Part shown: positions 6,137 through 39,087 of the stretch, in pieces | Position numbering within the stretch: position 1 is the stretch's first letter | Layout: the number at the start of each line of letters is the position of its first letter | Source: Trypanosoma brucei | Lineage: Eukaryota | NCBI GenBank assembly: GCA_000002445.1 | Contig: AE017150.2 | Location: 832,001 to 896,000 of the forward strand | Direction of reading: 5' to 3' | Length of the DNA: 64,000 nt | Translations under genes and position numbers: made by a program | The notes under the pieces: generated by a model | Seen by the model: only the letters and a program-made list of their open reading frames with translations | Database searches by the model: none | What the model was told of the DNA's origin: nothing

Positions 6137-8413
6137 TCAACATCGTGGACCAAGGGCAATAAGGAAAGGTTTTCCCTCCGGGTCCGCCTGGTCCGCAACC
6201 TCATGTCGTTTCCGCAACCAAAACAACTGCATAAGCCGCAATTTGAGCATATGCAGTCTATTGGACTCATGCACGACTGCGATTTCATTGTACTCCCCGT
6301 GCTTGCGGTGAAGCTCCCGCTGCGAGTACCGCGAAATCACGTAATCTATGCCTTCAGAGTTGTACAAGTCATTAGTTTCGTCAAATCGTATTTCTTCCTT
6401 AATGTATTGCATCTCCAGCCCGCGTCTCTGAAGCAATATCGAAAGACTGAAGGCATCTGATACCTCTGTGCGGCTGCTATCGCCACCACTAACAACAGCG
6501 GGGGATGGCACATTGCCCGTCCCAAACAATTCTTCATCATGAAGCCCAGTGTCGCCAACAACTATTGATCGTCCGACACTCATTAGCGCGCGGAAAGGAA
6601 ATGTCAAAAGTTTAACAAAGCGATCCGACACCTGCTGTGAAGCGCCAGCGGTTGCAAATGTGCTATTTGTGGGGTTCCGCCTCTGTATTTTATGCACCTT
6701 CTGGAAGCGGCTGATTCCAGTCATTGCTGCATAGGCGTCAATGAAGACAGAAATAGAGTTGCTCCTGTTCGTTCTTGTGGTTAGGCGCCGACTTAGGCAC
6801 GAGGACGAGTTCCTAACATCTTTTTCTACAGCGTGGTGAAGACGTCGTAGAGCCTCGGACCCCGGGTAATTATCAGCGCTCAAGTACACAGAAAGCAAAA
6901 CGGTCGCGAGCTGCACAGTGTACAAGAGGACTATCAAAGATGCGATGACAGAGCGCCGGGTTAAGCAAGCAAGAAACCACCTCGGCCTGACATTAAAACC
7001 ACCCTTCCCATCTCCTCTGCTGCGCAGGTTTGCACCCTCATTCCTCCACTTTACTAGCGTAGCACGCCCCTGTACAATTCCCTTTCCTTTTGTCACCTCC
7101 AATGTGCAAGATGACAGTGGCCGCGCGAAACACTCGTCCCATAGGCGTGTACCAGCCGCCGCTAGGGGCACCAGCAACCAGGGAAACACAATCATCAAAA
7201 ACCGAACTTCCTTGTGGGGAAGCAAACTGTACAATACGATGAAGAGACTTGACGGTACCAATAAGTCAGCGTACCGCTCGCTGGTGTCCAGAAACACCCA
7301 AAGCGCACAGTGGGCTGCAGCAGGTGATGGTTCTTCACTAGTTGTTCCTTCTCTTCTGCCCGCGCCCGACAACCTATGCAATGCAAAATATATGTTCCCC
7401 CACCCCATGCACACTAAAGTAAGCCACAATGGATACAGAAAGAGCAAGCTGCGCGGCAGTGCCACCAGCACGTACCAATATACGGGCAGCCTTCCCCACC
7501 TCCACGATTGATTCTCTGCGGTGTTAAACAGGAGAACCACGGCTTCCGGCCACACCAACCTCCCCCACAAGTAGCTATCCATCCCAATACTGAAGATAAC
7601 GACAGCAGCCACCGAACAGATGCCCGCCGCGACGCCACGCAGCAACGTGATGTCACCTCTCAACAACAAGAATAAAGAGTAAGGTGCCAGCAAGACCAGA
7701 ACATCACATCGAAACAACGCTGAGGTAGCGCTGAGCAGTGCAATTGCCCAATAGTATTTGCCACGGCAAGTAGCACCACATGCTAGAGTACACATTATAA
7801 GTCCGTACGTGTTGGGCAACGGCCGCGTTGCATAAAATACCAAATGAAATTGCGACAGGCACAACAAGTAAAACACACTCGAAACATGCCGCATACTGAC
7901 AGGGCACCTGGCTGCGGCAACACGTGAAGATGTGCTCTTGAATTTTTCCCATTTCGCAGCGCTGTCAATACCACAACCAACATAACCGAGAGCACAGCAG
8001 GTGACGACGCCCAAGGTCACCCGACACATGTTAGAAGCAAGCATTGGAAACAACGCAAACAACTCCTCAGAAGAACCCACAAGACCAACATCCTCCACCA
8101 GTCGAACAAACCATGCAACATCTCCCGCAACAACATACTTCAATGGTTCCAATAGGAACCTTACGACATAATTCACATCACAGAGAAACGGCAACATCGC
8201 CAACGACGCAACAAACCAAGGTCCAGTAAACGTTCGAGGAACCACCCCAGGCGAGCTTAAATGGTCAAAACATGCTCTTTTACCACAAAGCAAAAAATCA
8301 TGCATCGCCTGCATACCGAAGCTCTCCTCCACTTTCGTATAAGGGCAAACTATTTCAACAGAAATGACACAAGCCAACAAAAATAAAAAACTAAAAAACG
8401 ATAAAACAGTCAT
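6137..8413 (-). CDS. ALG12: Dol-P-Man-dependent alpha-1,6-mannosyltransferase ALG12-like (glycosyltransferase family 22), multi-pass membrane protein with a long C-terminal extension
   Basis: 758-aa ORF with the N-terminal GT22 signature CPYTKVEESFGMQAMHD...DHLSSPGVVPRTFTGP, as in ALG12-type enzymes, and many hydrophobic helices. Sitting next to the RRM1-like gene matches the TbRRM1/TbALG12 order I recall. The true start Met may lie downstream of the first ATG. Confidence 0.65.
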   Translation of the reverse strand: MTVLSFFSFLFLLACVISVEIVCPYTKVEESFGMQAMHDFLLCGKRACFDHLSSPGVVPRTFTGPWFVASLAMLPFLCDVNYVVRFLLEPLKYVVAGDVAWFVRLVEDVGLVGSSEELFALFPMLASNMCRVTLGVVTCCALGYVGCGIDSAAKWEKFKSTSSRVAAARCPVSMRHVSSVFYLLCLSQFHLVFYATRPLPNTYGLIMCTLACGATCRGKYYWAIALLSATSALFRCDVLVLLAPYSLFLLLRGDITLLRGVAAGICSVAAVVIFSIGMDSYLWGRLVWPEAVVLLFNTAENQSWRWGRLPVYWYVLVALPRSLLFLYPLWLTLVCMGWGNIYFALHRLSGAGRREGTTSEEPSPAAAHCALWVFLDTSERYADLLVPSSLFIVLYSLLPHKEVRFLMIVFPWLLVPLAAAGTRLWDECFARPLSSCTLEVTKGKGIVQGRATLVKWRNEGANLRSRGDGKGGFNVRPRWFLACLTRRSVIASLIVLLYTVQLATVLLSVYLSADNYPGSEALRRLHHAVEKDVRNSSSCLSRRLTTRTNRSNSISVFIDAYAAMTGISRFQKVHKIQRRNPTNSTFATAGASQQVSDRFVKLLTFPFRALMSVGRSIVVGDTGLHDEELFGTGNVPSPAVVSGGDSSRTEVSDAFSLSILLQRRGLEMQYIKEEIRFDETNDLYNSEGIDYVISRYSQRELHRKHGEYNEIAVVHESNRLHMLKLRLMQLFWLRKRHEVADQADPEGKPFLIALGPRC

Positions 8414-8841
8414 TTACAGATAAGACTACGTGAAAAGGAAAAGAAAAAAAATAGAAATTTAAAAACTGCACTCACTCACAGAGAATATACATTACACGTC
8501 ACAAGCATTCAAATACAGCACAAAAATAAGGTTGACAACGAGCTTCCGGTGCACACACCAACCCGTAAACGAATAACAAAGCACATCAAAAACACAAAAC
8601 TACCAAGACAATCGATAAGGTAACTGTATGCCACGCCAACCAGTTGCAGCGCAATGCTCATACTGGCAAACGTGGCACACGCTGCGCCAAGGCTCACAGT
8701 ATCAACAGTGATGTAATCGACAGAGCGTTACCAAATACATCACCACGACAGGACATAGCACACTACGGAACCTGCAACATTACGATATAGCTGCAAAACA
8801 AAACAACAGGAAAAACAATTACTGTATATCCACAACACCGG

Positions 8842-9870
8842 TCACAGCTGCGCCCCATCACGCGTCCAGTACACCTCCCCACTCATTGCAGCCTCGTCCA
8901 TCTGCTTCCGCTTCTCACCTTCAGGGAGTCGGTAATTCATAAAAACAATACGCATCTCCTCTGGCGTCATGTCCTTCACCCAACCTCGTGCATTCAAGTA
9001 ACGTCGAGCAAGTTCCCGCTCCCTCAAATCACGATGATAAGGGCTCAGTGGGTGGCTCGCTCTCCACAGGGTATCCAGTAAACAGGGGTCACGCAAACCC
9101 TCCTCAATCTGTTCATCCGTCAGTGGTGACATATTGGGCCGGTGCAACCGCTCAATCAGTGGTGCCTCTTCAAGTTCACGCTGCCTCAACGTAGTATATT
9201 GTTCCATGTGTATACGCCTGTACCTTTCGCATTCCTCCGTGTACTGCTGCTCAGTCATATCTTTCACGGGGGAACTGTAAGGTGTATCTACGCCAATGAA
9301 ACAAACACCCATCCGCCTGGCTTGCCCAACAACGCGTCGTACACGGGTCTCCAGTAACGGGTACTCTGGACGTCCCCAACACAACGGTTTCATTTTCGCT
9401 ATTTCGTATGCCATCTCCAATGTCATCAGAGCACAGTAGTGCCCTCGCAGCGGCACAGGTCCCGTCTCCCGCCGCTTCTTCCGAAGTGCACGCAGAATGA
9501 ACCACGCAGTAGGTGGCGGTTCAATTGTAAAAAGATACGATTTGTCAAAGTACACTTGGATGCGAACAATCAGCTCGACATCTTCCTTGAAGTGTGGCTT
9601 CGTCCGGTCATTGAACACCTTCGCAAAATCCATCGCCTTCAGCCCAAGTTTCGAAAACTCTTGTCCCACGGGAGGACCCGTCGCCGCCTTCCCAGCCTTA
9701 ATAAAGAAACGCCAGTTGTGCAATACACGCTTCCCAGGAAATTCAGGTCGCCCAAATATATCCCTCGCCTTCTCAACCACCAAAGCTTCAGGCAGTCGGT
9801 TTGAACCAGGTTCTACACACACCGTCTTGGGCCGTGCCCTTAGTTGAAGGACGCCACACGCGCGGAGCAT
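8842..9870 (-). CDS. ribosomal protein L11-domain protein (likely mitochondrial large-subunit L11), copy 1
   Basis: 342-aa ORF. KAGKAATGPPVGQEFSKLGLKAMDFAKVFNDRTK resembles the L11 N-terminal domain consensus. An identical protein is encoded at 31965..32993. Confidence 0.65.
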   Translation of the reverse strand: MLRACGVLQLRARPKTVCVEPGSNRLPEALVVEKARDIFGRPEFPGKRVLHNWRFFIKAGKAATGPPVGQEFSKLGLKAMDFAKVFNDRTKPHFKEDVELIVRIQVYFDKSYLFTIEPPPTAWFILRALRKKRRETGPVPLRGHYCALMTLEMAYEIAKMKPLCWGRPEYPLLETRVRRVVGQARRMGVCFIGVDTPYSSPVKDMTEQQYTEECERYRRIHMEQYTTLRQRELEEAPLIERLHRPNMSPLTDEQIEEGLRDPCLLDTLWRASHPLSPYHRDLRERELARRYLNARGWVKDMTPEEMRIVFMNYRLPEGEKRKQMDEAAMSGEVYWTRDGAQL

Positions 9871-10412
9871 CAGTCAACTGTCACTAAATGGCTTACACAC
9901 AATTACTAGTTGTAAGTCCTTATATACAGTTGCGTACCAGAAGAGAAGAGGGAAGAGATAGTAACAGCAAGCATCCAAAGAAATGGGCGAGACGGTATAC
10001 AGGAAACATGTGTATGCATGTAGGCAGTAAGTAGAGCCCGTGCAGCAAGCAAAGGAAATGGTGAAACAGCACAATTACCGTATAGTGAAGAGAAGCTTCA
10101 GAAACACAAATACAACAAAATGTAAAGGGAAGGGAAGGAATAATACTGAGACCACACACACACGCACACAGAAAGAGAGAGAGAGAGAGACGTACAGACA
10201 AACAAGGAGAAAAAACTCCTCACGATGATTCACATTCCAACACGCGGCATACGACAGTTCCTACCGCAACCGCGTCGCGCCATATTAACGCACACACTCA
10301 CTCCATAAATGAATCAAATGTTCAGCACCCGCATCGATCACATCCTAAGCAATGCATTACTCAGTGCATGGCCAAGGGGAGAGTGCACATCCCAACAAGC
10401 TATAATAGCATC

Positions 10413-11393
10413 CTACTCAATTATACCACACAGAAACGACAAGAATAACAGGATACAACAAACAGGAAACGGCACCTTGTACAGAAGGAACACACTCAAT
10501 AGTGAGTACATCTCCCTCCCAGAATCAGGTGCAATAACATTCGTCATTCTGCTTGCCTCGCCGACAGCTGCTTCATACCCATTACTGCACCGACCGCTAG
10601 GAACAGTACCTGAAGCACAGTTAACAGGAGAATAAACCAATGGAGAAGCCGAAGCAGCAGTCTGATCCCCAGCACCCTTTGGGGAGTGACGGCTCCTCAA
10701 CGCTGTCGAAGGTGGAGACACCTCTCCTCCAGCATTCCTTACAGCTGAACCTAACTGTGGCTGTGCTGCCGGAGCTTTCTCCACAGCCGCAGTCTCACAA
10801 CCTTCCACAAGTCCTTCCACCTTTCCATGACTTCGCTTCATCACAAGGCTATCCGGAACACCCAACTCCCCATAAATACAGCGAAGTGCACACCGAACAG
10901 CATTCCGCTCCCTCGCCTGCACACGTCCACGTTGCTTCCAAAATGCAGCAGCGACGTCCGGACCGCTAGGGCCCTTGCTACTACAGTCACCTCCAAAGAA
11001 ACCACTCACAGACTCATACGGTGCCATAACTTCCCTCGGCACCACACATATATCCACGAACACCTCATCCCTTGTGCCAGCGTCTGGCAACTCCACAGCT
11101 CCTTCCTCCACGCCACCACGCCTCGCTGCGAGACGACGGAGCCTACGGATGTCAAGCATAAACTTCACCCTCACACATTCACCAGCAAATATCAGTCCAA
11201 CAGATGGTTGAACACCATAGCGATTGCGTACAGCACTGAGAACTTTGAACGCCACAACATTCTCACAAGGGTCCTCAGTACGTACAAGTAGACTACTTAA
11301 CTCGATAATATTCTCAATACTGGCATCCGTCAGAGGAGAAGGAAAGTACAGGCACTCCTGTGAAAAACAAACAATGCCCCCACCACCCTTCAT
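10413..11393 (-). CDS. conserved hypothetical protein (326 aa), copy 1
   Basis: Long ORF with coding-like composition and a polypyrimidine tract on the minus strand upstream. The copy at 33536..34516 differs by one residue (S to R). I recognise no domain. Confidence 0.5.
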   Translation of the reverse strand: MKGGGGIVCFSQECLYFPSPLTDASIENIIELSSLLVRTEDPCENVVAFKVLSAVRNRYGVQPSVGLIFAGECVRVKFMLDIRRLRRLAARRGGVEEGAVELPDAGTRDEVFVDICVVPREVMAPYESVSGFFGGDCSSKGPSGPDVAAAFWKQRGRVQARERNAVRCALRCIYGELGVPDSLVMKRSHGKVEGLVEGCETAAVEKAPAAQPQLGSAVRNAGGEVSPPSTALRSRHSPKGAGDQTAASASPLVYSPVNCASGTVPSGRCSNGYEAAVGEASRMTNVIAPDSGREMYSLLSVFLLYKVPFPVCCILLFLSFLCGIIE

Positions 11394-11893
11394 CGTGGAT
11401 GAAAGATACGAAACACTAATTACTCACCCGTAAGAAAGGACAGATACGAAATAGAGAAGAAAAACATAAACACATTCCCGGGAAGTAATGACAGTCACAG
11501 ATACAACAAGTATGAAAAAGAAGATATTACACCAATAATAAAATAGCAAAACACCAACCTCTAATACGGTCGAATAAATATAAACATATAACATGTCCGC
11601 TACGCAACAATTAAGCGAAACAAAAAACAATGAAAGGATAGAAAAAATACAGCGCAAACTTCGTTGGGTTGTCAAACAATTCAAAAACACAGATTATGTG
11701 GTTGCCCACAGCGCCAACAAATCATATAACCATGCCAAATAACGAGCTGAAAGCACTCCCCACTACGGTGTCATCCTCATGGTCATACCAATAAAGTAAA
11801 ATACAGAGCAAAAAAATGATCATACATACCATTCGAACGTATCATAGTACAATGAAAGAGTGACAAACATTTATGCAGCCACGCAACTCAACA

Positions 11894-12082
11894 TTACAAC
11901 ATATATATACAAACAGTATTAGGCATGGAGAAATACTCCTTCACATTAACAATCACGCGTCCATCATCACCATCAGCAGCAGTCACATGCAGCGAACACA
12001 CGGCAGTTAGCAATAATAAAATACCGCACAGGAGAGCAGCACGCGTAAAACCAAAATTCACCATACGGGTGTCCATGCTCAT
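11894..12082 (-). pseudogene. truncated 5' fragment of the lectin-like surface protein gene (first ~53 codons plus upstream region), copy 1
   Basis: Its 62-aa ORF shares MSMDTRMVNFGFTRAALLCGILLLLTAVCSLHVTAADGDDGRVIVNVKEYFSM exactly with the N-terminus of the 12902..13999 gene, then diverges and stops. It lies in a 395-bp element (11927-12322) repeated at 13845-14240. Confidence 0.6.
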
Positions 12083-12901
12083 TGTCAGTGTTGCTTCCTT
12101 ATGACTTTATCAAATACACACATATGCGGGAAAGAGGGAAGAGCGTGTGAGTAAAGGGGAAATGCAACAGTGACAATAGAAAAAGGAGTTACACAAGATA
12201 TCAAATAATCACACATACACTCGAGGATAATAAACAAGAAATATGAAAAGGATAACACAAATAATAATGGAAGAGAGCAGCCATATCACATATCCCAACA
12301 AATTGGTTAGTGAGACACAGGTACTCAAAACATTTATTATCATAATGGGCCAAGTATAACTCAGGGATTGAACACTATGGAACTCTCATTTAATACAACC
12401 TCATATAGATTGTTAAAATAATTAAGTGCTGCAAGTTACACGTATAGCAATACATCACACGTAACAGGGAGGACCTACAAGCCTCCCACATATACATGGA
12501 AGTAAAACATGAAATAACGCGAACTAAACATGACACCCACACACGAAATAAATAATCAACACCAACAACAACGAAACAATGGGACATCAAACAGTAAAGA
12601 TGGTTCAATGGGTCACACACTAAAAGAGCAATGATGTGGTCGGAGGGAAGTGATGCCACACATCGGAAGTCCCTCGCAGAGCCAACATGGTACAAGGAGA
12701 TCGTTAATATTAGGAACATAAAAGTAATAATTACATAAGAGAGTATTGAGCACTACTGAAAGTAATAATAGGAAGTGAAACAATACACGAAGCTAGAAAT
12801 TTTGACGGTCCGTAACGTAGGATGAAAGCGGCACAGTATTCATTACTCCACTTGATCCTAAACATCACTCAACCACCACCCATGTGATACACGATGTGAC
12901 G

Positions 12902-13999
12902 CTAATACGATTGACCGGTCATCATTTGGTTATAATATTGCAGGGCTAAGGGAGGAGCAGCAAAACCCTCTGGGGGAACAAAAGGTGTTGGCTCCAGGAC
13001 AAACAACGGCTCTCCAACAACTTCACGCAGCGTCATGGGAATGATCTCCTTTTTAACATTATAATCACAGAACCAACGTAAAAGGAAAAGCAGCAACACA
13101 ATGAGGGAAACAACAGAAATTAGAGCTATAAGAATAATGAGCAAATCAATCCTCTCTTCCAATGACACAGTTGTCACAGTAACTTCTTCATCCTTTGTCA
13201 CAGTTGGTTCCGGTACTTCGCCAGAGGCAGGTGCAGTTGTAGTTGTAGTGGTAGTTGTTGTGGTTGTCGTCGTGCTGATAGAATCATGGACCTCGCAAAC
13301 AACAACGTAGTCTTGAGACTTTGTTTCAAAGTTCTGACTTGTCCAACGAATAGTCCCAGAAGCCTCCCTGCCATCATACCAGGTAGTCACATCATCATCT
13401 TCATGGTACCATGAAAGGGTATACAACTGACCATGCTTGGGATATTCACTACCCCAAAAGGATGGGTAACCATTCATTGGAGCCGCAAAAGCGTATTTGA
13501 CATATGAACCACGCCAGAACGCCACCCCGTGACCATCAGGCAAAGCCTTTGCAAACAATCCCTTATTCCAACGATACACACAATGACGTGAAGATGCCGC
13601 GTCTCCAGGCTTACAACGCTTATCAGCCACAATGGCCCCGCCACTACTGTACACAGCATCTCCACCAAGGTAGCTGAAAGCATCCGAACCCGTTAACACA
13701 TCTTTCATTGCATCCTGCAAACTTTGGTGTGCCGCCTCCGTTTGATCGGCAGGAAGCACAGCGCCATTGTCGCGGCAATATGCTTCAGCATTGTTGTAAC
13801 TAACAAAGTACTTCCCATGACGACTAAATGCAAAATTGTCCATAGAGAAATACTCCTTCACATTAACAATCACGCGTCCATCATCACCATCAGCAGCAGT
13901 CACATGCAGCGAACACACGGCAGTTAGCAATAATAAAATACCGCACAGGAGAGCAGCACGCGTAAAACCAAAATTCACCATACGGGTGTCCATGCTCAT
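12902..13999 (-). CDS. type I membrane surface glycoprotein: signal peptide, C-type-lectin-like ectodomain, poly-Thr mucin-like stalk, single TM, short cytoplasmic tail (paralog A)
   Basis: 365 aa. The N-terminus has a hydrophobic signal peptide. The ectodomain has CTLD-like spacing (KYFVSYNNAEAYCRDNGAVLPADQTEAAHQSLQ ... WYDGREASGTIRWTSQNFE ... YVVVCEV). A run of 13 Thr precedes APASGEVPEPTVT, then the TM LIILIALISVVSLIVLLLFLL and tail RWFCDYNVKKE... The lectin assignment is tentative; the architecture is clear. Confidence 0.6.
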   Translation of the reverse strand: MSMDTRMVNFGFTRAALLCGILLLLTAVCSLHVTAADGDDGRVIVNVKEYFSMDNFAFSRHGKYFVSYNNAEAYCRDNGAVLPADQTEAAHQSLQDAMKDVLTGSDAFSYLGGDAVYSSGGAIVADKRCKPGDAASSRHCVYRWNKGLFAKALPDGHGVAFWRGSYVKYAFAAPMNGYPSFWGSEYPKHGQLYTLSWYHEDDDVTTWYDGREASGTIRWTSQNFETKSQDYVVVCEVHDSISTTTTTTTTTTTTTAPASGEVPEPTVTKDEEVTVTTVSLEERIDLLIILIALISVVSLIVLLLFLLRWFCDYNVKKEIIPMTLREVVGEPLFVLEPTPFVPPEGFAAPPLALQYYNQMMTGQSY

Positions 14000-15103
14000 T
14001 GTCAGTGTTGTTTCCTTATGACTTTATCAAATACACACATATGCGGGAAAGAGGGAAGAGCGTGTGAGTAAAGGGGAAATGCAACAGTGACAATAGAAAA
14101 AGGAGTTACACAAGATATCAAATAATCACACATACACTCGAGGATAATAAACAAGAAATATGAAAAGGATAACACAAATAATAATGGAAGAGAGCAGCCA
14201 TATCACATATCCCAACAAATTGGTTAGTGAGGCACAGGTACACGTCGTATTTGATACAATAGTGGAGAAACTAAAGCAGAAAGAATATACATTATTCAAC
14301 TCTTGTTTGGTACAACCCTACTGTGCGAGGTCACCCGGAGCATTCGAGAGTGATGAAAACCAAATCCTCGCCTATTCATTATCCACGTTAGTTGAGGGGC
14401 GGAAGTGCTGCGTACATCAACGCGCGGTAAGAAGCGAGTGAAAACCGACTTACATTTGTCGCGACCTTCTTCAGGTGACGTCCGTAGGTGTGCCTGATCA
14501 GGATACGGCCATCTAGTATGAGAAGTAACCGGCGACGCCGATCTATCCGAACAAATACTACAACAAACAGCATAGACACGGAAGCGGAGTGGGAAAGCAT
14601 CACCAGCTCAGTTGTACTCAGTGTGCCAATAGGGTGGTTTTTTTTCTGCTATAAAAAAAGAACTTGAAGCATAAAGAAACGATGGTCCGCCTCCAGCTGC
14701 GTACCGGCGCACAGCGGAACCCCCATTGAATTTAAAACATCGTGCAGGTGGAGGTGCGGCAAGTTTACTCCCTCCCTTCCCTTCATTGTCTTCTTGGGTA
14801 CCTCGCGCATGTCCCAACAAACCACACAATCTCCAACCCGAGGACAACCGATAACGGGCATACGCTTTGTCTCCCCGCAAAGTCTCCAAGCGCGCACGTA
14901 TTCACATCACTATCGCAGCCTGTCATATTGCATACAAGTCGCTGTGGCCTTGCGAAAAAAAGCTCCCAGCTAGCGTAAACTAAACTCTCTCCAAGCACCA
15001 GGAGACAGAGTTGCAAATGCACACCACCACTCAGTCCCAACCTCGCTTCTTCGATCTGTTCATCTGTCAACACCAGCTCTCCCAAGTCCGTTCATCCATT
15101 GTG

Positions 15104-31562: not shown

Positions 31563-31964
31563 ACTTAAACTGATAAAAAAACAGCCTTAACTACAAAAGG
31601 GATATGCCTAAAAAAAACCTAAATAAAAGATTCAAATACAGCACAAAAATAAGGTTGACAACGAGCTTCCGGTGCACACACCAACCCGTAAACGAATAAC
31701 AAAGCACATCAAAAACACAAAACTACCAAGACAATCGATAAGGTAACTGTATGCCACGCCAACCAGTTGCAGCGCAATGCTCATACTGGCAAACGTGGCA
31801 CACGCTGCGCCAAGGCTCACAGTATCAACAGTGATGTAATCGACAGAGCGTTACCAAATACATCACCACGACAGGACATAGCACACTACGGAACCTGCAA
31901 CATTACGATATAGCTGCAAAACAAAACAACAGGAAAAACAATTACTGTATATCCACAACACCGG

Positions 31965-32993
31965 TCACAGCTGCGCCCCATCACGCGTCCAGTACACCTC
32001 CCCACTCATTGCAGCCTCGTCCATCTGCTTCCGCTTCTCACCTTCAGGGAGTCGGTAATTCATAAAAACAATACGCATCTCCTCTGGCGTCATGTCCTTC
32101 ACCCAACCTCGTGCATTCAAGTAACGTCGAGCAAGTTCCCGCTCCCTCAAATCACGATGATAAGGGCTCAGTGGGTGGCTCGCTCTCCACAGGGTATCCA
32201 GTAAACAGGGGTCACGCAAACCCTCCTCAATCTGTTCATCCGTCAGTGGTGACATATTGGGCCGGTGCAACCGCTCAATCAGTGGTGCCTCTTCAAGTTC
32301 ACGCTGCCTCAACGTAGTATATTGTTCCATGTGTATACGCCTGTACCTTTCGCATTCCTCCGTGTACTGCTGCTCAGTCATATCTTTCACGGGGGAACTG
32401 TAAGGTGTATCTACGCCAATGAAACAAACACCCATCCGCCTGGCTTGCCCAACAACGCGTCGTACACGGGTCTCCAGTAACGGGTACTCTGGACGTCCCC
32501 AACACAACGGTTTCATTTTCGCTATTTCGTATGCCATCTCCAATGTCATCAGAGCACAGTAGTGCCCTCGCAGCGGCACAGGTCCCGTCTCCCGCCGCTT
32601 CTTCCGAAGTGCACGCAGAATGAACCACGCAGTAGGTGGCGGTTCAATTGTAAAAAGATACGATTTGTCAAAGTACACTTGGATGCGAACAATCAGCTCG
32701 ACATCTTCCTTGAAGTGTGGCTTCGTCCGGTCATTGAACACCTTCGCAAAATCCATCGCCTTCAGCCCAAGTTTCGAAAACTCTTGTCCCACGGGAGGAC
32801 CCGTCGCCGCCTTCCCAGCCTTAATAAAGAAACGCCAGTTGTGCAATACACGCTTCCCAGGAAATTCAGGTCGCCCAAATATATCCCTCGCCTTCTCAAC
32901 CACCAAAGCTTCAGGCAGTCGGTTTGAACCAGGTTCTACACACACCGTCTTGGGCCGTGCCCTTAGTTGAAGGACGCCACACGCGCGGAGCAT
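31965..32993 (-). CDS. ribosomal protein L11-domain protein (mitochondrial L11-like), copy 2
   Basis: 342-aa translation identical to 8842..9870. Confidence 0.65.
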   Translation of the reverse strand: MLRACGVLQLRARPKTVCVEPGSNRLPEALVVEKARDIFGRPEFPGKRVLHNWRFFIKAGKAATGPPVGQEFSKLGLKAMDFAKVFNDRTKPHFKEDVELIVRIQVYFDKSYLFTIEPPPTAWFILRALRKKRRETGPVPLRGHYCALMTLEMAYEIAKMKPLCWGRPEYPLLETRVRRVVGQARRMGVCFIGVDTPYSSPVKDMTEQQYTEECERYRRIHMEQYTTLRQRELEEAPLIERLHRPNMSPLTDEQIEEGLRDPCLLDTLWRASHPLSPYHRDLRERELARRYLNARGWVKDMTPEEMRIVFMNYRLPEGEKRKQMDEAAMSGEVYWTRDGAQL

Positions 32994-33535
32994 CAGTCAA
33001 CTGTCACTAAATGGCTTACACACAATTACTAGTTGTAAGTCCTTATATACAGTTGCGTACCAGAAGAGAAGAGGGAAGAGATAGTAACAGCAAGCATCCA
33101 AAGAAATGGGCGAGACGGTATACAGGAAACATGTGTATGCATGTAGGCAGTAAGTAGAGCCCGTGCAGCAAGCAAAGGAAATGGTGAAACAGCACAATTA
33201 CCGTATAGTGAAGAGAAGCTTCAGAAACACAAATACAACAAAATGTAAAGGGAAGGGAAGGAATAATACTGAGACCACACACACACGCACACAGAAAGAG
33301 AGAGAGAGAGAGACGTACAGACAAACAAGGAGAAAAAACTCCTCACGATGATTCACATTCCAACACGCGGCATACGACAGTTCCTACCGCAACCGCGTCG
33401 CGCCATATTAACGCACACACTCACTCCATAAATGAATCAAATGTTCAGCACCCGCATCGATCACATCCTAAGCAATGCATTACTCAGTGCATGGCCAAGG
33501 GGAGAGTGCACATCCCAACAAGCTATAATAGCATC

Positions 33536-34516
33536 CTACTCAATTATACCACACAGAAACGACAAGAATAACAGGATACAACAAACAGGAAACGGCACCT
33601 TGTACAGAAGGAACACACTCAATAGTGAGTACATCTCCCTCCCAGAATCAGGTGCAATAACATTCGTCATTCTGCTTGCCTCGCCGACAGCTGCTTCATA
33701 CCCATTACTGCACCGACCGCTAGGAACAGTACCTGAAGCACAGTTAACAGGAGAATAAACCAATGGAGAAGCCGAAGCAGCAGTCTGATCCCCAGCACCC
33801 TTTGGGGAGTGACGGCTCCTCAACGCTGTCGAAGGTGGAGACACCTCTCCTCCAGCATTCCTTACAGCTGAACCTAACTGTGGCTGTGCTGCCGGAGCTT
33901 TCTCCACAGCCGCAGTCTCACAACCTTCCACAAGTCCTTCCACCTTTCCATGACTTCGCTTCATCACAAGGCTATCCGGAACACCCAACTCCCCATAAAT
34001 ACAGCGAAGTGCACACCGAACAGCATTCCGCTCCCTCGCCTGCACACGTCCACGTTGCTTCCAAAATGCAGCAGCGACGTCCGGACCGCTAGGGCCCTTT
34101 CTACTACAGTCACCTCCAAAGAAACCACTCACAGACTCATACGGTGCCATAACTTCCCTCGGCACCACACATATATCCACGAACACCTCATCCCTTGTGC
34201 CAGCGTCTGGCAACTCCACAGCTCCTTCCTCCACGCCACCACGCCTCGCTGCGAGACGACGGAGCCTACGGATGTCAAGCATAAACTTCACCCTCACACA
34301 TTCACCAGCAAATATCAGTCCAACAGATGGTTGAACACCATAGCGATTGCGTACAGCACTGAGAACTTTGAACGCCACAACATTCTCACAAGGGTCCTCA
34401 GTACGTACAAGTAGACTACTTAACTCGATAATATTCTCAATACTGGCATCCGTCAGAGGAGAAGGAAAGTACAGGCACTCCTGTGAAAAACAAACAATGC
34501 CCCCACCACCCTTCAT
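33536..34516 (-). CDS. conserved hypothetical protein (326 aa), copy 2
   Basis: One amino-acid difference from 10413..11393 (SRKGPSG versus SSKGPSG). Confidence 0.5.
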   Translation of the reverse strand: MKGGGGIVCFSQECLYFPSPLTDASIENIIELSSLLVRTEDPCENVVAFKVLSAVRNRYGVQPSVGLIFAGECVRVKFMLDIRRLRRLAARRGGVEEGAVELPDAGTRDEVFVDICVVPREVMAPYESVSGFFGGDCSRKGPSGPDVAAAFWKQRGRVQARERNAVRCALRCIYGELGVPDSLVMKRSHGKVEGLVEGCETAAVEKAPAAQPQLGSAVRNAGGEVSPPSTALRSRHSPKGAGDQTAASASPLVYSPVNCASGTVPSGRCSNGYEAAVGEASRMTNVIAPDSGREMYSLLSVFLLYKVPFPVCCILLFLSFLCGIIE

Positions 34517-35016
34517 CGTGGATGAAAGATACGAAACACTAATTACTCACCCGTAAGAAAGGACAGATACGAAATAGAGAAGAAAAACATAAACACATTC
34601 CCGGGAAGTAATGACAGTCACAGATACAACAAGTATGAAAAAGAAGATATTACACCAATAATAAAATAGCAAAACACCAACCTCTAATACGGTCGAATAA
34701 ATATAAACATATAACATGTCCGCTACGCAACAATTAAGCGAAACAAAAAACAATGAAAGGATAGAAAAAATACAGCGCAAACTTCGTTGGGTTGTCAAAC
34801 AATTCAAAAACACAGATTATGTGGTTGCCCACAGCGCCAACAAATCATATAACCATGCCAAATAACGAGCTGAAAGCACTCCCCACTACGGTGTCATCCT
34901 CATGGTCATACCAATAAAGTAAAATACAGAGCAAAAAAATGATCATACATACCATTCGAACGTATCATAGTACAATGAAAGAGTGACAAACATTTATGCA
35001 GCCACGCAACTCAACA

Positions 35017-35205
35017 TTACAACATATATATACAAACAGTATTAGGCATGGAGAAATACTCCTTCACATTAACAATCACGCGTCCATCATCACCATCAGC
35101 AGCAGTCACATGCAGCGAACACACGGCAGTTAGCAAATATAAAAGACCGCACAGGAGAGCAGCACGCGTAAAACCAAAATTCACCATACGGGTGTCCATG
35201 CTCAT
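35017..35205 (-). pseudogene. truncated 5' fragment of the lectin-like surface protein gene, copy 2
   Basis: Shares the signal-peptide N-terminus with the 36049..37104 gene, then diverges to the same PNTVCIYML stop as copy 1. It has 2 substitutions relative to the copy-1 fragment. Confidence 0.6.
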
Positions 35206-36048
35206 TGTCAGTGTTGCTTCCTTATGAGTTTATCAAATACACACATATGCGGGAAAGAGGGAAGAGCGTGTGAGTAAAGGGGAAATGCAACAGTGACAAT
35301 AGAAAAAGGAGTTACACAAGATATCAAATAATCACACATACACTCGAGGATAATAAACAAGAAATATGAAAAGGATAACACAAATAATAATGGAAGAGAG
35401 CAGCCATATCACATATCCCAACAAATTGGTTAGTGAGACACAGGTACTCAAAACATTTATTATCATAATGGGCCAAGTATAACTCAGGGATTGAACACTA
35501 TGGAACTCTCGTTTAATGTAACCTCATATAGATTGTTAAAATTATCAAGTGCTGCAAGTTACACGTATAGCAATACATCACACGTAACAGGGAGGACCTA
35601 CAAGCCTCCCACATATACATGGAAGTAAAACATGAAATAACGCGAACTAAACATGACACCCACACACGAAATAAATAATCAACACTAACAACAACGAAAC
35701 AATGGGACATCAAACAGTAAAGATGGTTCAATGGGTCACACACTAAAAGAACAATGATGTGGTCGGAGGGAAGTGATGCCACACATCGGAAGTCCCTCGC
35801 AGAGCCAACATGGTACAAGGAGACCGTTAATATTAGGAACATAAAAGTAATAATTATATAAGAGAGTATTGAGCACTACTGAAAGTAATAGTAGGAAGTG
35901 AAACAATACACGAAGCTAGAAATTGTGACGGTCCGTAACGTAGGATGAAAGCGGTACAGTATTCATTACTCCACTTGATCCTAAACATCACTCAACCACC
36001 ACCCATGTGATACACGATGTGACGCTAATATTATTCACTGGTTCTCAT

Positions 36049-37104
36049 TTAGCCATAATATTGCAGGGCTAAGGGAGGAGCATCAAAACCCTCTGGGGGA
36101 GCAAAAGGTGTTGGCTCCAGGACAAACAACGGTTCTCCAACAACTTCACGCAGCGTCATGGGAATGATCTCCTTTTTAACATTATAATCACAGAACCAAC
36201 GTAAAAGGAAAAGCAGCAACACAATGAGGGAAACAACAGAAATTAGAGCTATGAGAATAATGTGCCAATTACTTCTCTCTTCCAATGACGCAGTTGTCAC
36301 AGTAACTTCTTCATCCTTTGTCACAGTTGGTTCCGGTACTTCGCCTGAGGCAGGTGCAGCTGTAGTTGTTGTCGTCGTGCTGATAGAATCGTGGACCTCG
36401 CAAACAACAACGTAGTCTTGAGACTTTGTTTCAAAGTTCTGACTTGTCCATCGGATAGTCCCAGAAGCCTCCCTGCCATCGTACCAGGTAGTCACATCTT
36501 CGTGTTCATGGTACCATGAAAGGGTATACAACTGACCACTCTTGGGATATTCACTACCCCAAAAGGATGGGTAACCATTCATTGGGGCCGCAAAAGCGTA
36601 TTTGACATATGAACCACGCCAGAACGCCACCCCGTGACCATCAGGCAAAGCCTTTGCAAACAATCCCTTATTCCAACGATACACACAATGACGTGAAGAT
36701 GCCGCGTCTCCAGGCTTACAACGCTTATCAGCTTCAAATACCCTTGTACTGCTGTACACAGCATCTCCACCAAGGTAGCTGACGGCCTCAAACTCAAAAA
36801 TTACACTCTTCATAGCATCCTGCAAACTTTGGTGTGCCGCCTCCGTTTGATCGGCAGGAAGCACAGCACCGTTGTCGACACAATATGCTTCAGCATTATC
36901 GTAACCAACAATGTACCGTTCGTGACGACTAAATGCAAAATTGTCCATAGAGAAATACTCCTTCACATTAACAATCACGCGTCCATCATCATCATCAGCA
37001 GCAGTCACATGCAGCGGACACACGGCAGTTAGCAATAATAAAATACCGCACAGGAGAGCAGCACGCGTAAAACCAAAATTCACCATACGGGTGTCCATGC
37101 TCAT
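36049..37104 (-). CDS. type I membrane surface glycoprotein with a lectin-like ectodomain, short poly-Thr stalk and TM (paralog B)
   Basis: 351 aa with the same architecture as 12902..13999. It differs in clustered ectodomain substitutions (SRHERYIVGYDNAEAYCVDNG, KSVIFEFEAV, SSTRVFEAD, HEHED). The Thr run is 5 rather than 13, and the C-terminus is shorter (QYYG stop). Confidence 0.6.
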   Translation of the reverse strand: MSMDTRMVNFGFTRAALLCGILLLLTAVCPLHVTAADDDDGRVIVNVKEYFSMDNFAFSRHERYIVGYDNAEAYCVDNGAVLPADQTEAAHQSLQDAMKSVIFEFEAVSYLGGDAVYSSTRVFEADKRCKPGDAASSRHCVYRWNKGLFAKALPDGHGVAFWRGSYVKYAFAAPMNGYPSFWGSEYPKSGQLYTLSWYHEHEDVTTWYDGREASGTIRWTSQNFETKSQDYVVVCEVHDSISTTTTTTAAPASGEVPEPTVTKDEEVTVTTASLEERSNWHIILIALISVVSLIVLLLFLLRWFCDYNVKKEIIPMTLREVVGEPLFVLEPTPFAPPEGFDAPPLALQYYG

Positions 37105-39087
37105 TGTCAGTGTTGTTTCCTTATGAGTCTATCAAATACACACATATGCGGGAAAGAGGGAAGAGCGTGTCAGTAAAGGGGAAATGCAACAGTGACAATA
37201 GAAAAAGGAGTTACACAAGATATCAAATAATCACACATACACTCGAGGATAATAAACAAGAAACATGAAAAAGGATAACACAAATAATAATGGAAGAGAG
37301 CAGCCATATCACATATCCCAACAAATTGGTTAGTGAGGCACAGGTACACGTCGTATTTGATACAATAGTGGAGAAACTAAAGCAGAAAGAATATACATTA
37401 TTCAACTCTTGTTTGGTACAACCCTACTGTGCGAGGTCACCCGGAGCATTCGAGAGTGATGAAAACCAAATCCTCGCCTATTCATTATCCACGTTAGTTG
37501 AGGAGCGGAACCAACACCGACCGTCACTTCGCAAAGACGAAAAAAAATATGCAGATACAGCATAACATATCAGCTACATGCATGGTTTATGTACTGGAGC
37601 ACAGCTGGACAGTCAGCGACATTTGTCACGTAATTGCGAAACATTGTCCGTTGTTTCGTGCTTGCTGAGAGACTCCTGTAAAGTACATACTCGTCAAAAT
37701 AACCTTAAGGAAGAAAGAGAAGAAAACTAGTGGCAAGCCTTTACGACAGTAGTGAAGTTTTTGCACAAATCCTTCATCACGTGCAAAACTGTTGTAGTCA
37801 TCATCTGTACACTAAATCATTGTGCGCGCCCCATTATTCATTGCTTACTATGTCGCTTTATTGCACTACGCTACGCTGTATAACCTCATCGTCTTGGAAG
37901 TAACGTGGGTCAGATGTGGACCGTTATGAAAAAGTCGTACAACCACCACACGTTGGAAGTGCCCGTGGCGAAGGCAGCGCCGTTGGAGAAGATCAACTTA
38001 TCTTTTGTCCACGTTACGTGCAAACGCAGTTACATCCTTCGGAAACCTTCTGAAGAGCATTAAACCTTCGAAAGACGTTACGCATTTTATCTCGGTCGTG
38101 CCCATACTTACGGCTATGACTCCTCAAAGGATAAATTGAGTAATTATATATGAGTAATCACTCTTCATTTGTCAAAAAAAAAAAGATGAAAGGAAAGGAA
38201 AGGGGGCAAGTTTTAAGATATTGATGTTGTGTAACGGACATGAGTTGCCCTCCATTCCATTTGAAAAAAAAAACAAGATATTTCCTTTATGTTACACACT
38301 CTCTCACATTGTTGTGATTCAGCATTATGAAGCTTACTGCTGCCACTGCCGCTGCCACGCGTTGATAACAGCAACAGCGAGTAGACGGTTTCAGAGGCCA
38401 CCCTCGCCATTTACCGTCCTTCTCGTTTACTTCTCTCCTTTACTAGTTTTGAGACTTCTTTTTTTTTTCTTTTTGCAGCTATCCCCGTGCCTTGTGTCCT
38501 TCGCGTTTGCACAACATAAAGGGGAACTTTGGAGGAGGGGGGGAGGCGATGCCTTTTTATAATGTCATGTGCTCTGTACGAAGCAGAGGAGGGGAGTTAA
38601 ACAGCGTTGTGCTGCTGGCACGAGACGGGGGTTAGACATTTCCTCCAATGCGCATGTCAAAATACACGGGAGGGCTCAAGCAATGTGCAGCACTCACTTT
38701 ACCAGGCAAACCACCTAAAAACAGTCTCTCCACCCCGAGTCAGCATCAAGAGCAGAGGATGGTTGGAGTTAGGATGAAAAAAAAAACTGAGAACGTGAAC
38801 AAGTTAGCGAATGTAAAGTTGAGGGAATCAAGGTACTTTCGTTTTTACACACACACACATACCTACCTACTTGAGCACAGAGCTAAAAAAGAAAATGGGT
38901 AAACTATTTCCCACGCTACTCCACACCATTCTGTCTGACGGAGAGTCCTATGAAGGCAAGAAGCGCCACTCGCTAACCCAACCCATTTCTCCTTCTTTAC
39001 GTGTATCGAAGTTTGTGGAATAAGAAGGAAACTCCTAAAACATACACAAACACACACACACGTATATATATATATACTTCACCACTC

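What the first reader, a model, noticed from the sequence alone, without database searches (positions are those of the whole stretch)
11927..14240. A 395-bp element holding the surface-gene 5' end and upstream region occurs twice per unit (four times in the window), leaving truncated gene stubs
Elements 11927-12322 and 13845-14240 (and 35050-35445 / 36950-37345 in unit B) are near-identical. Each contains the first ~53 codons of the surface protein (signal peptide) plus ~240 bp of upstream sequence. In the downstream copy the ORF breaks after ...KEYFSM into PNTVCIYML-stop. This looks like the remnant of a once-tandem array of surface-protein genes, one of which was deleted leaving its 5' end. 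Alternatively the upstream control region was duplicated. The repeats are direct and ~1.9 kb apart, so they are substrates for unequal recombination that could expand or contract the family. The stub retains a splice-acceptor region and start codon, so it could be transcribed and translated into a 62-aa signal-peptide-bearing peptide.
Basis: seen in the sequence. Interest (0 to 1): 0.6.

Follow-up and report, generated by a model that had tools for sequence, protein, structure and literature searches.

The report
Truncated end-copy of IGP40 gene array
The repeated 400-bp element is real, but it is an ordinary leftover: the cut-off first fifth of a second copy of a tandemly repeated trypanosome glycoprotein gene (IGP40), already annotated as a gene fragment in a sister genome.

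Summary
Observation confirmed. A 401-bp block occurs four times, all direct repeats, 97-99.3% identical: 11924-12324, 13841-14241, 35047-35447 and 36946-37347. Each holds 242 bp of upstream sequence plus 53 codons.

The window is Trypanosoma brucei chromosome 2. The gene is IGP40 (Pfam PF16825), which the literature places in the ER, not on the surface.

The pair of elements is 1.2 copies of the 1.9-kb IGP40 tandem-array unit. T. b. equiperdum carries six such units head to tail about 100 kb away on the same chromosome.

The stub derives from an array-type unit, not from its neighbouring gene. It reads ...SMPN like array copies, and it ends abruptly at 11917/11918.

The same junction is present at all six loci examined: units A and B in the window, in DAL972 and in T. 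equiperdum. It therefore predates both the 5.9-kb A/B duplication and the split of the subspecies. DAL972 already annotates it as a "fragment".

SNP mosaics show that the elements exchange sequence by gene conversion. The stub holds the only polypyrimidine tract/AG downstream of the full gene, so it probably sets that mRNA's poly(A) site; this step is inferred.

The 62-aa ORF shows no sign of constraint. Low novelty.

The parts
13841..14241 (-). Unit A, 5' block of the intact IGP40 gene. It is 242 bp of upstream processing region (polypyrimidine tracts 14172-14149, 14105-14086 and 14068-14039; first AG at 14023/14022) plus codons 1-53 (signal peptide).
12902..13999 (-). IGP40 gene of unit A, 365 aa: signal peptide, IGP-family C-type-lectin domain, Thr run, TM helix, cytoplasmic tail.
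   Evidence: Pfam PF16825, E 5.5e-84. 97% identical to T. b. equiperdum RHW74093.1. The IGP40 RT-PCR primers of PMC4497807 match the sequence.
12325..12901 (-). 3' UTR / inter-unit spacer of the array unit. It contains no polypyrimidine tract of its own.
   Evidence: Homologous to T. equiperdum array spacers; polyY scan.
11918..12324 (-). Unit A stub: the first 407 bp of a second, array-type IGP40 unit. It holds the polyY tracts 12255-12122, AG 12106/12105, ATG 12082 and 55 genuine codons ending ...SMPN. It is cut at an illegitimate junction at 11917/11918. The ORF 11894-12082 adds 7 unrelated codons.
14242..14317 (-). Old, diverged upstream edge of the repeat: 59% identical, in exact register, to 12325-12400.
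36946..37347 (-). Unit B, 5' block of the intact IGP40 gene.
36049..37104 (-). IGP40 gene of unit B, 351 aa, identical to T. b. brucei TREU927 XP_951669.1.
35041..35447 (-). Unit B stub, with the same junction as unit A. ORF 35017-35205, 62 aa, with two extra substitutions in the signal-peptide core (I21L, L23Y).
8507..14404 (-). Copy A of the 5.9-kb segmental duplication. It carries IGP40, the stub, an MSP-domain gene (10413-11393) and a mitochondrial-type ribosomal L11 gene (8842-9870). Both ends are sharp.
31630..37510 (-). Copy B of the 5.9-kb segmental duplication.

Best explanation
Each element pair is 1.2 copies of the 1.9-kb IGP40 tandem-repeat unit. One complete unit (processing region, gene, 3' UTR/spacer) is followed by the first 407 bp of a second unit. 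That second unit is joined to unrelated sequence at an illegitimate breakpoint two codons into the first hypervariable patch of the ectodomain.

The truncation happened once, in an ancestor of the T. brucei subspecies. The 5.9-kb duplication that produced units A and B then copied it passively.

As a coding sequence the stub is a dead fragment: a signal peptide, about 20 further residues and 7 junk codons.

The stub remains part of the IGP40 repeat family at the DNA level. It exchanges sequence with the other 5' blocks by gene conversion, and together with the upstream block it forms direct repeats that could delete or amplify the gene.

Inferred step: trypanosomes place the poly(A) site about 100 nt upstream of the next active polypyrimidine tract. 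The stub carries the first such tract after the intact gene. It therefore most likely defines the 3' end of the IGP40 mRNA, giving the dispersed genes the same 3' UTR as the array genes. As a by-product it would yield a short trans-spliced transcript.
For: Shown:
1. T. b. equiperdum OVI chromosome 2 has six head-to-tail units of 1906-1926 bp plus a partial seventh, each 91-93% identical to window 12325-14241 over its full length.
2. The stub reads TCC ATG CCT AAT, like array units u2-u4 and TREU927 XP_951702.1 (...SMPN...). The adjacent gene reads TCT ATG GAC AAT (...SMDN...). Two further diagnostic sites group most stubs with array units (Tbg_B_stub departs at column 10).
3. No residual homology to the rest of the gene lies downstream of the stub.
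4. The identical junction is present at units A and B in the window, in DAL972 and in T. equiperdum, 6 of 6 loci.
5. Distributions of variants that conflict with orthology show conversion among the elements. The S30 variant is shared only by the window's A-full, A-stub and B-stub. The T-insertion/G haplotype is scattered across paralogues.
6. The only polyY tracts between the IGP40 stop codon (12902) and the MSP gene's own signals lie inside the stub.
7. DAL972 annotates the stub as a 41-aa 'hypothetical protein, conserved, (fragment)', CBH09534.1, next to the IGP40 gene CBH09535.1.

From the literature:
- IGP40 has ten genes in TREU927, including the dispersed Tb927.2.4760 and .4920 and the array Tb927.2.5290-5360 (PMC4497807 supplement; PMC3998935).
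- The array is recombinant and varies in copy number, 8 versus 24 (PMC2854126).
- The poly(A) site is measured about 100 nt from the downstream polyY tract (PMC6597758).
Against: - The role in mRNA processing is inferred from sequence only; no SL or poly(A) mapping data could be consulted.
- In T. equiperdum the last unit of the main array keeps only about 55-68 bp of the next unit and takes a polyY tract from unrelated flank. A stub is therefore not required for 3' processing.
- The 76-bp, 59%-identical upstream edge shows the history has more than one layer. There was an older duplication or insertion, followed by later homogenisation.
- Truncation in place cannot be told apart from insertion of a 1.2-unit fragment copied from the main array.
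Confidence: 0.85

Rival explanations
1. The 400-bp control region and 5' end were duplicated locally from the adjacent gene, with no tandem array involved.
For: A-stub and A-full differ at only 3 of 401 positions.
Against: The spacing equals the array period, and the whole intervening spacer is array-homologous. The stub carries CCTAAT and other array-type bases that the neighbouring gene lacks. The A-stub is closer to T. equiperdum array units u3 and u6 (2 differences) than to its own neighbour (3 differences).
Confidence: 0.04
2. The stub is kept by selection as a functional module. It would act as a downstream homology arm and processing signal, turning each dispersed IGP40 gene into a cassette flanked by direct repeats. 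Such a cassette could be popped out, re-amplified or overwritten from the main array.
For: - The stub is conserved at 6 of 6 loci.
- The SNP mosaics involve the stubs.
- In the window, A and B are identical downstream of the stub (1 difference in 3.4 kb) but differ at 112 sites from the stub upward.
- DAL972 contains an IGP40-less junction running through a chimeric element.
Against: Conservation over about 1% divergence is expected for neutral sequence as well. The DAL972 junction may be an assembly join across a 100-N gap, because the 3.3 kb of redundant upstream sequence differs by only one indel. There is no direct evidence of selection.
Confidence: 0.12
3. The stub is a small functional gene encoding a 62-aa peptide with a signal sequence.
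For: The polyY tract, AG, ATG and open frame are intact at all six loci.
Against: Variable codons among the stubs run about 8 nonsynonymous to 1 synonymous, and they include changes in the hydrophobic core of the signal peptide. The last 7 codons are read from unrelated flank. An intact ORF is expected by chance at this low divergence.
Confidence: 0.04
4. The repeat is an assembly artefact, or the direct repeats are LTR-like ends of a mobile element.
For: Direct repeats of 400 bp flanking 1.5 kb look superficially like LTRs. Tandem arrays are often misassembled.
Against: The same structure appears in three independent assemblies and twice per genome, with distinct SNPs each time. The internal part encodes the IGP40 lectin domain, and the repeat itself contains the gene's 5' end. 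Rfam finds nothing in 8000-15000.
Confidence: 0.01

Closest known systems
IGP40 tandem array of T. brucei chromosome 2 (Tb927.2.5290-5360; array 'Tb12' of Jackson 2007, PMC1855330; Allison et al. 2014, PMC4497807) with dispersed copies Tb927.2.4760 and Tb927.2.4920
   Same: Same gene family, same 1.9-kb unit and same conserved 5' block and spacer. Recombinant mosaics and copy-number variation have already been published for it (PMC2854126, Table 2). The window's unit-B protein is identical to the TREU927 protein XP_951669.1.
   Different: The papers deal with whole genes. As far as the text I could search goes, the truncated second unit beside each dispersed copy is not discussed.
Annotated gene fragment CBH09534.1 / XP_011771839.1 of T. 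b. gambiense DAL972 ('hypothetical protein, conserved, (fragment)')
   Same: It is the orthologous stub at unit A, next to the IGP40 gene CBH09535.1.
   Different: It is annotated as only 41 aa because a contig ends inside it, followed by a 100-N gap.
Coupled trans-splicing and polyadenylation in trypanosomatids (reviewed in PMC6597758)
   Same: The stub holds the first polyY tract and AG after the intact gene. That is the signal known to position the upstream poly(A) site about 100 nt away.
   Different: Use of this particular site was not tested here.
Deletion or amplification between direct repeats, and concerted evolution at the edges of arrays
   Same: The gene is flanked by 401-bp direct repeats at 97-99% identity. 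The identity drops in a step to 59% at the outer upstream edge, as expected where homogenisation cannot reach.
   Different: Only indirect evidence exists for an actual pop-out allele, and it comes from a gapped region of the DAL972 assembly.

Membership tests
IGP40 subfamily of trypanosome invariant glycoproteins (full genes at 12902-13999 and 36049-37104) | IGP-family C-type-lectin domain (Pfam PF16825/DUF5075) | tested here: met
   E 5.5e-84, residues 64-236 covering the full model.
IGP40 subfamily of trypanosome invariant glycoproteins (full genes at 12902-13999 and 36049-37104) | Type I topology: N-terminal signal peptide, one TM helix, short cytoplasmic tail | tested here: inconclusive
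   A hydrophobic N-terminus and a C-terminal hydrophobic stretch (LLIILIALISVVSLIVLLLFLL) are visible in the translation. No predictor was run. PMC4497807 reports signal peptides for all 20 IGPs.
IGP40 subfamily of trypanosome invariant glycoproteins (full genes at 12902-13999 and 36049-37104) | At least 85% identity to other IGP40 members, located on chromosome 2 | tested here: met
   83-97% identical to T. brucei-group chromosome 2 proteins. The B gene is identical to TREU927 XP_951669.1.
IGP40 protein (the stub ORFs 11894-12082 and 35017-35205) | Lectin domain and TM anchor present | tested here: not met
   Only 55 IGP40 codons remain, and no homology to the rest of the gene lies downstream. 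The stub is a gene fragment, not a family member as a protein.
Terminal partial unit of a tandem gene array | Repeat spacing equals the array period, and the intervening sequence is homologous to a complete unit | tested here: met
   1917 bp versus 1906-1926 bp units in T. equiperdum; 91-93% identity over the full length.
Terminal partial unit of a tandem gene array | Same orientation and register as a unit start, with abrupt loss of homology at the truncated end | tested here: met
Terminal partial unit of a tandem gene array | More than one complete unit was once present at this locus (contraction in place) | not testable with these tools
   No outgroup with synteny could be fetched. The T. 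congolense contig L005 has four IGP-like genes but no flanking marker genes.
Processed (retroposed) pseudogene | Starts at the mRNA 5' end, lacks upstream intergenic sequence, has a poly(A) tail and target-site duplications | tested here: not met
   The stub includes 242 bp upstream of the ATG, with polyY tracts that lie outside the mature mRNA. It has no poly(A) tail.
Active trans-splice acceptor / poly(A)-determining signal | Polypyrimidine tract followed by AG, located upstream of an ATG | tested here: met
   PolyY tracts at 12255-12122, first AG at 12106/12105, ATG at 12082.
Active trans-splice acceptor / poly(A)-determining signal | Spliced-leader addition and upstream poly(A) sites observed in RNA | not testable with these tools

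The most novel reading that the evidence does not exclude
The stub is not inert debris. It would be a retained module that supplies the dispersed IGP40 genes with array-type 3' processing and with a downstream homology arm. Each gene would then sit in a cassette bounded by about 400-bp direct repeats, and its hypervariable lectin ectodomain could be deleted, re-amplified or rewritten from the main array 100 kb away. This would be a VSG-like cassette logic applied to an ER lectin family.
Probability: 0.12. Interest if true: 0.4.

Novelty: already known. Interest (0 to 1): 0.15.

Why it matters
It matters little beyond annotation.
- It explains a small "conserved hypothetical (fragment)" gene model.
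- It warns that the IGP40 RT-PCR forward primer of PMC4497807 also lies in the stubs.
- It marks sites where copy number of an essential ER glycoprotein family could change by recombination between repeats.
- The sharp contrast between the perfectly homogenised flank and the fast-evolving IGP40 unit is a tidy local example of concerted evolution. It would be worth a look in population long-read data.

Tried and rejected
- Exact-sequence look-ups found nothing on record for the window's IGP40-A, MSP-domain, stub and IGP40-B proteins, or for TREU927 P0003. The TREU927 locus itself could therefore not be fetched. Comparison relied on DAL972 and T. equiperdum OVI.
- The T. congolense contig L005 has four tandem IGP-like genes but none of the flanking marker genes, so the ancestral state of the locus stays open.
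- A sensitive BLAST for decayed remains of the gene downstream of the stub found nothing colinear.
- Rfam found no RNA family in 8000-15000.
- An LTR or mobile-element reading and a retroposed-pseudogene reading were both considered and rejected on anatomy.
- I considered treating the DAL972 IGP40-less junction as proof of a pop-out allele and did not. It borders a 100-N gap, and the redundant 3.3 kb differs by only one indel.

Full report
**Observation.** Self-BLAST, the repeat finder and a four-way alignment confirm a 401-402-bp block present four times as direct repeats. The copies are at 11924-12324, 13841-14241, 35047-35447 and 36946-37347, at 97.0-99.3% identity. No other copies occur in the window. 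All long ORFs lie on the minus strand, as expected for a trypanosomatid polycistronic unit. In gene sense, each block is 242 bp of upstream sequence followed by 53 codons. The upstream copy in each pair heads an intact gene: 12902-13999 (365 aa) and 36049-37104 (351 aa). The downstream copy heads a 62-aa ORF: 11894-12082 and 35017-35205. The two pairs lie in a 5.9-kb segmental duplication, 8507-14404 and 31630-37510, with sharp ends. That duplication also carries an MSP-domain gene and a mitochondrial-type L11 gene.

**Identity of the gene.** The intact protein matches Pfam PF16825, the 'IGP family C-type lectin domain', at E 5.5e-84. Its closest relatives are T. brucei-group chromosome 2 proteins. 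The unit-B protein is identical to TREU927 XP_951669.1. The published IGP40 RT-PCR primers are present in the sequence. Allison et al. 2014 (PMC4497807) define IGP40 as ten genes in TREU927. Their supplement, together with PMC3998935, lists Tb927.2.4760 and .4920 plus the array Tb927.2.5290-5360. HA-tagged IGP40 co-localised with BiP in the ER, so 'surface gene' is not the best label.

**What the element pair is.** In T. b. equiperdum OVI the orthologue of unit A has the same gene-plus-stub structure (L001). About 100 kb away on the same chromosome (L002) there are six head-to-tail units of 1906-1926 bp and a partial seventh. Each is 91-93% identical to window 12325-14241 over its full length. 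The 1917-bp spacing of the window's elements is therefore the array period, and the locus is 1.2 array units.

The stub is not a copy of its neighbour's 5' end. It continues 6 nt past the within-window repeat as TCC ATG CCT AAT. Array units u2-u4 and TREU927 XP_951702.1 read the same (...SMPN...), whereas the neighbouring gene reads TCT ATG GAC AAT (...SMDN...). Two more sites group most stubs with array units; Tbg_B_stub departs at column 10. Beyond 11917/11918 there is no colinear homology to the rest of the gene. The junction is therefore clean and illegitimate, two codons into the first hypervariable patch of the ectodomain.

**Age.** The same junction sequence occurs at units A and B in the window, in DAL972 (L003, L004) and in T. 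equiperdum (L001, L007). The truncation therefore happened once, before the A/B duplication and before the subspecies diverged. DAL972 already annotates the unit-A stub as a 41-aa 'hypothetical protein, conserved, (fragment)', CBH09534.1, beside the IGP40 gene CBH09535.1.

**A second, older layer.** Upstream of the 401-bp block the repeat continues for 76 bp at only 59% identity, in exact register. That is 45/76 against a background of 19.5 +/- 3.8 and a maximum of 39 over 63,618 offsets. A step from 99% to 59% is what an old duplication edge looks like when later homogenisation cannot reach it. It shows the locus has a longer history than one event. I cannot tell whether the locus was once a longer array that contracted in place, or whether 1.2 units were copied in over an older IGP-related sequence.

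**Ongoing exchange.** The distribution of variants among twelve full-length copies of the element and one partial copy conflicts with orthology.
- A T (Ser30) is shared only by the window's A-full, A-stub and B-stub.
- A T-insertion/G haplotype is scattered across full and stub copies in all three genomes.
- The T. equiperdum A and B stubs share M53I and M61V.

These patterns are signatures of gene conversion that includes the stubs. Published work already reports recombinant mosaics and copy-number differences for this array, 8 versus 24 copies (PMC2854126; PMC1855330).

In DAL972 a second contig, placed after a 100-N gap, runs from the upstream flank through a chimeric element straight into the stub's downstream flank, with no IGP40 gene. 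The element is full-type at its 5' end and stub-type at its 3' end. This is what a pop-out allele would look like. However, the redundant 3.3 kb differs from the first contig by only one indel, so an assembly join cannot be excluded.

**Likely mechanism (inferred).** A pyrimidine scan shows that the first polyY tracts after the IGP40-A stop codon are those inside the stub (12255-12122). The first AG is at 12106/12105, 22 nt before the stub ATG. The MSP gene has its own signals further on, at 11652-11432. In T. brucei the poly(A) site is measured about 100 nt upstream of the active polyY tract (PMC6597758). The stub should therefore fix the 3' end of the intact IGP40 mRNA near 12290-12360. That would give it the same roughly 0.55-0.6-kb 3' UTR as array copies, and it would produce a short trans-spliced by-product.

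This role is not obligatory. The last unit of the T. equiperdum main array keeps only about 55-68 bp of the next unit and is followed by an unrelated polyY-rich flank.

The 62-aa ORF is open at all six loci. Its variable codons are about 8 nonsynonymous to 1 synonymous, including changes in the hydrophobic core of the signal peptide. There is no sign of constraint on a peptide.

**Verdict.** The feature is nevertheless an ordinary truncated terminal unit of a published tandem gene family, and it is already annotated as a fragment in a sister genome. Novelty is low.

Noticed in passing
8507-11923 vs 31630-35046: In the window, the 3.4 kb downstream of the stub (MSP-domain and L11 genes) differs between units A and B at 1 position. 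The 2.5 kb from the stub upward differs at 112 positions. In DAL972 and T. equiperdum the same 3.4 kb differs between A and B at 21-25 sites, and orthologues pair with each other (12-14 differences). This points to a very recent A/B homogenisation in the window's lineage, towards the B type, with the tract ending at the stub.
   Followed up: yes
L003 12043-15607 (T. b. gambiense DAL972 FN554965.1, unit A): A 100-N gap lies inside the stub. It is followed by a redundant 3.4-kb copy of the upstream region that runs through a chimeric element directly into the stub's flank, giving an IGP40-less junction. This is either a heterozygous pop-out allele or an assembly join. The 733-aa gene model there is the C-terminal part of the 940-aa gene.
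   Followed up: partly
14242-14317 vs 12325-12400 (and the unit-B equivalents): A 76-bp extension of the repeat at only 59% identity, in exact register. It is an old array edge lying outside the homogenised block.
   Followed up: yes
12902-13999 and 36049-37104, compared with T. equiperdum and DAL972 units: Among all 11 aligned units, the 5' 350 bp and most of the TM/tail and 3' UTR/spacer are 94-100% identical, with a few spacer windows at 90-91%. Patches of the lectin ectodomain drop to 63-87%. The first hypervariable patch begins exactly where the stub is cut. Orthologous IGP40 units differ 2-4 times more than the flanking genes.
   Followed up: partly
13230-13270 vs 36370-36390: The poly-Thr run differs in length: 12 Thr in unit A, 6 in unit B and 10 in the DAL972 and T. 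equiperdum A and B copies. This accounts for the 1917 vs 1899/1900 bp spacing.
   Followed up: yes
L002 4014-15569 (T. equiperdum CM010673.1): The main IGP40 array has six units, but genes were called in only three (u3, u4, u6). Units u1, u2 and u5 look degenerate. The array lies between a trans-sialidase-like gene and an RHS-protein fragment.
   Followed up: no
L007 12740-13801 (T. equiperdum, unit B): An intact 353-aa IGP40 ORF is present, but no gene is called there in the record's gene list.
   Followed up: partly
12902-13999: The 365-aa unit-A protein has no exact match in the protein collection, although the unit-B protein equals TREU927 XP_951669.1. The window may come from a different assembly version or a close relative of TREU927.
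   Followed up: no
13975-13992 within the element (and 12058-12075, 35181-35198, 37080-37097): The published IGP40 qRT-PCR forward primer (CTGCATGTGACTGCTGCT, PMC4497807) lies inside the repeated block, so it also anneals to the stubs. The reverse primer lies only in intact genes.
   Followed up: no
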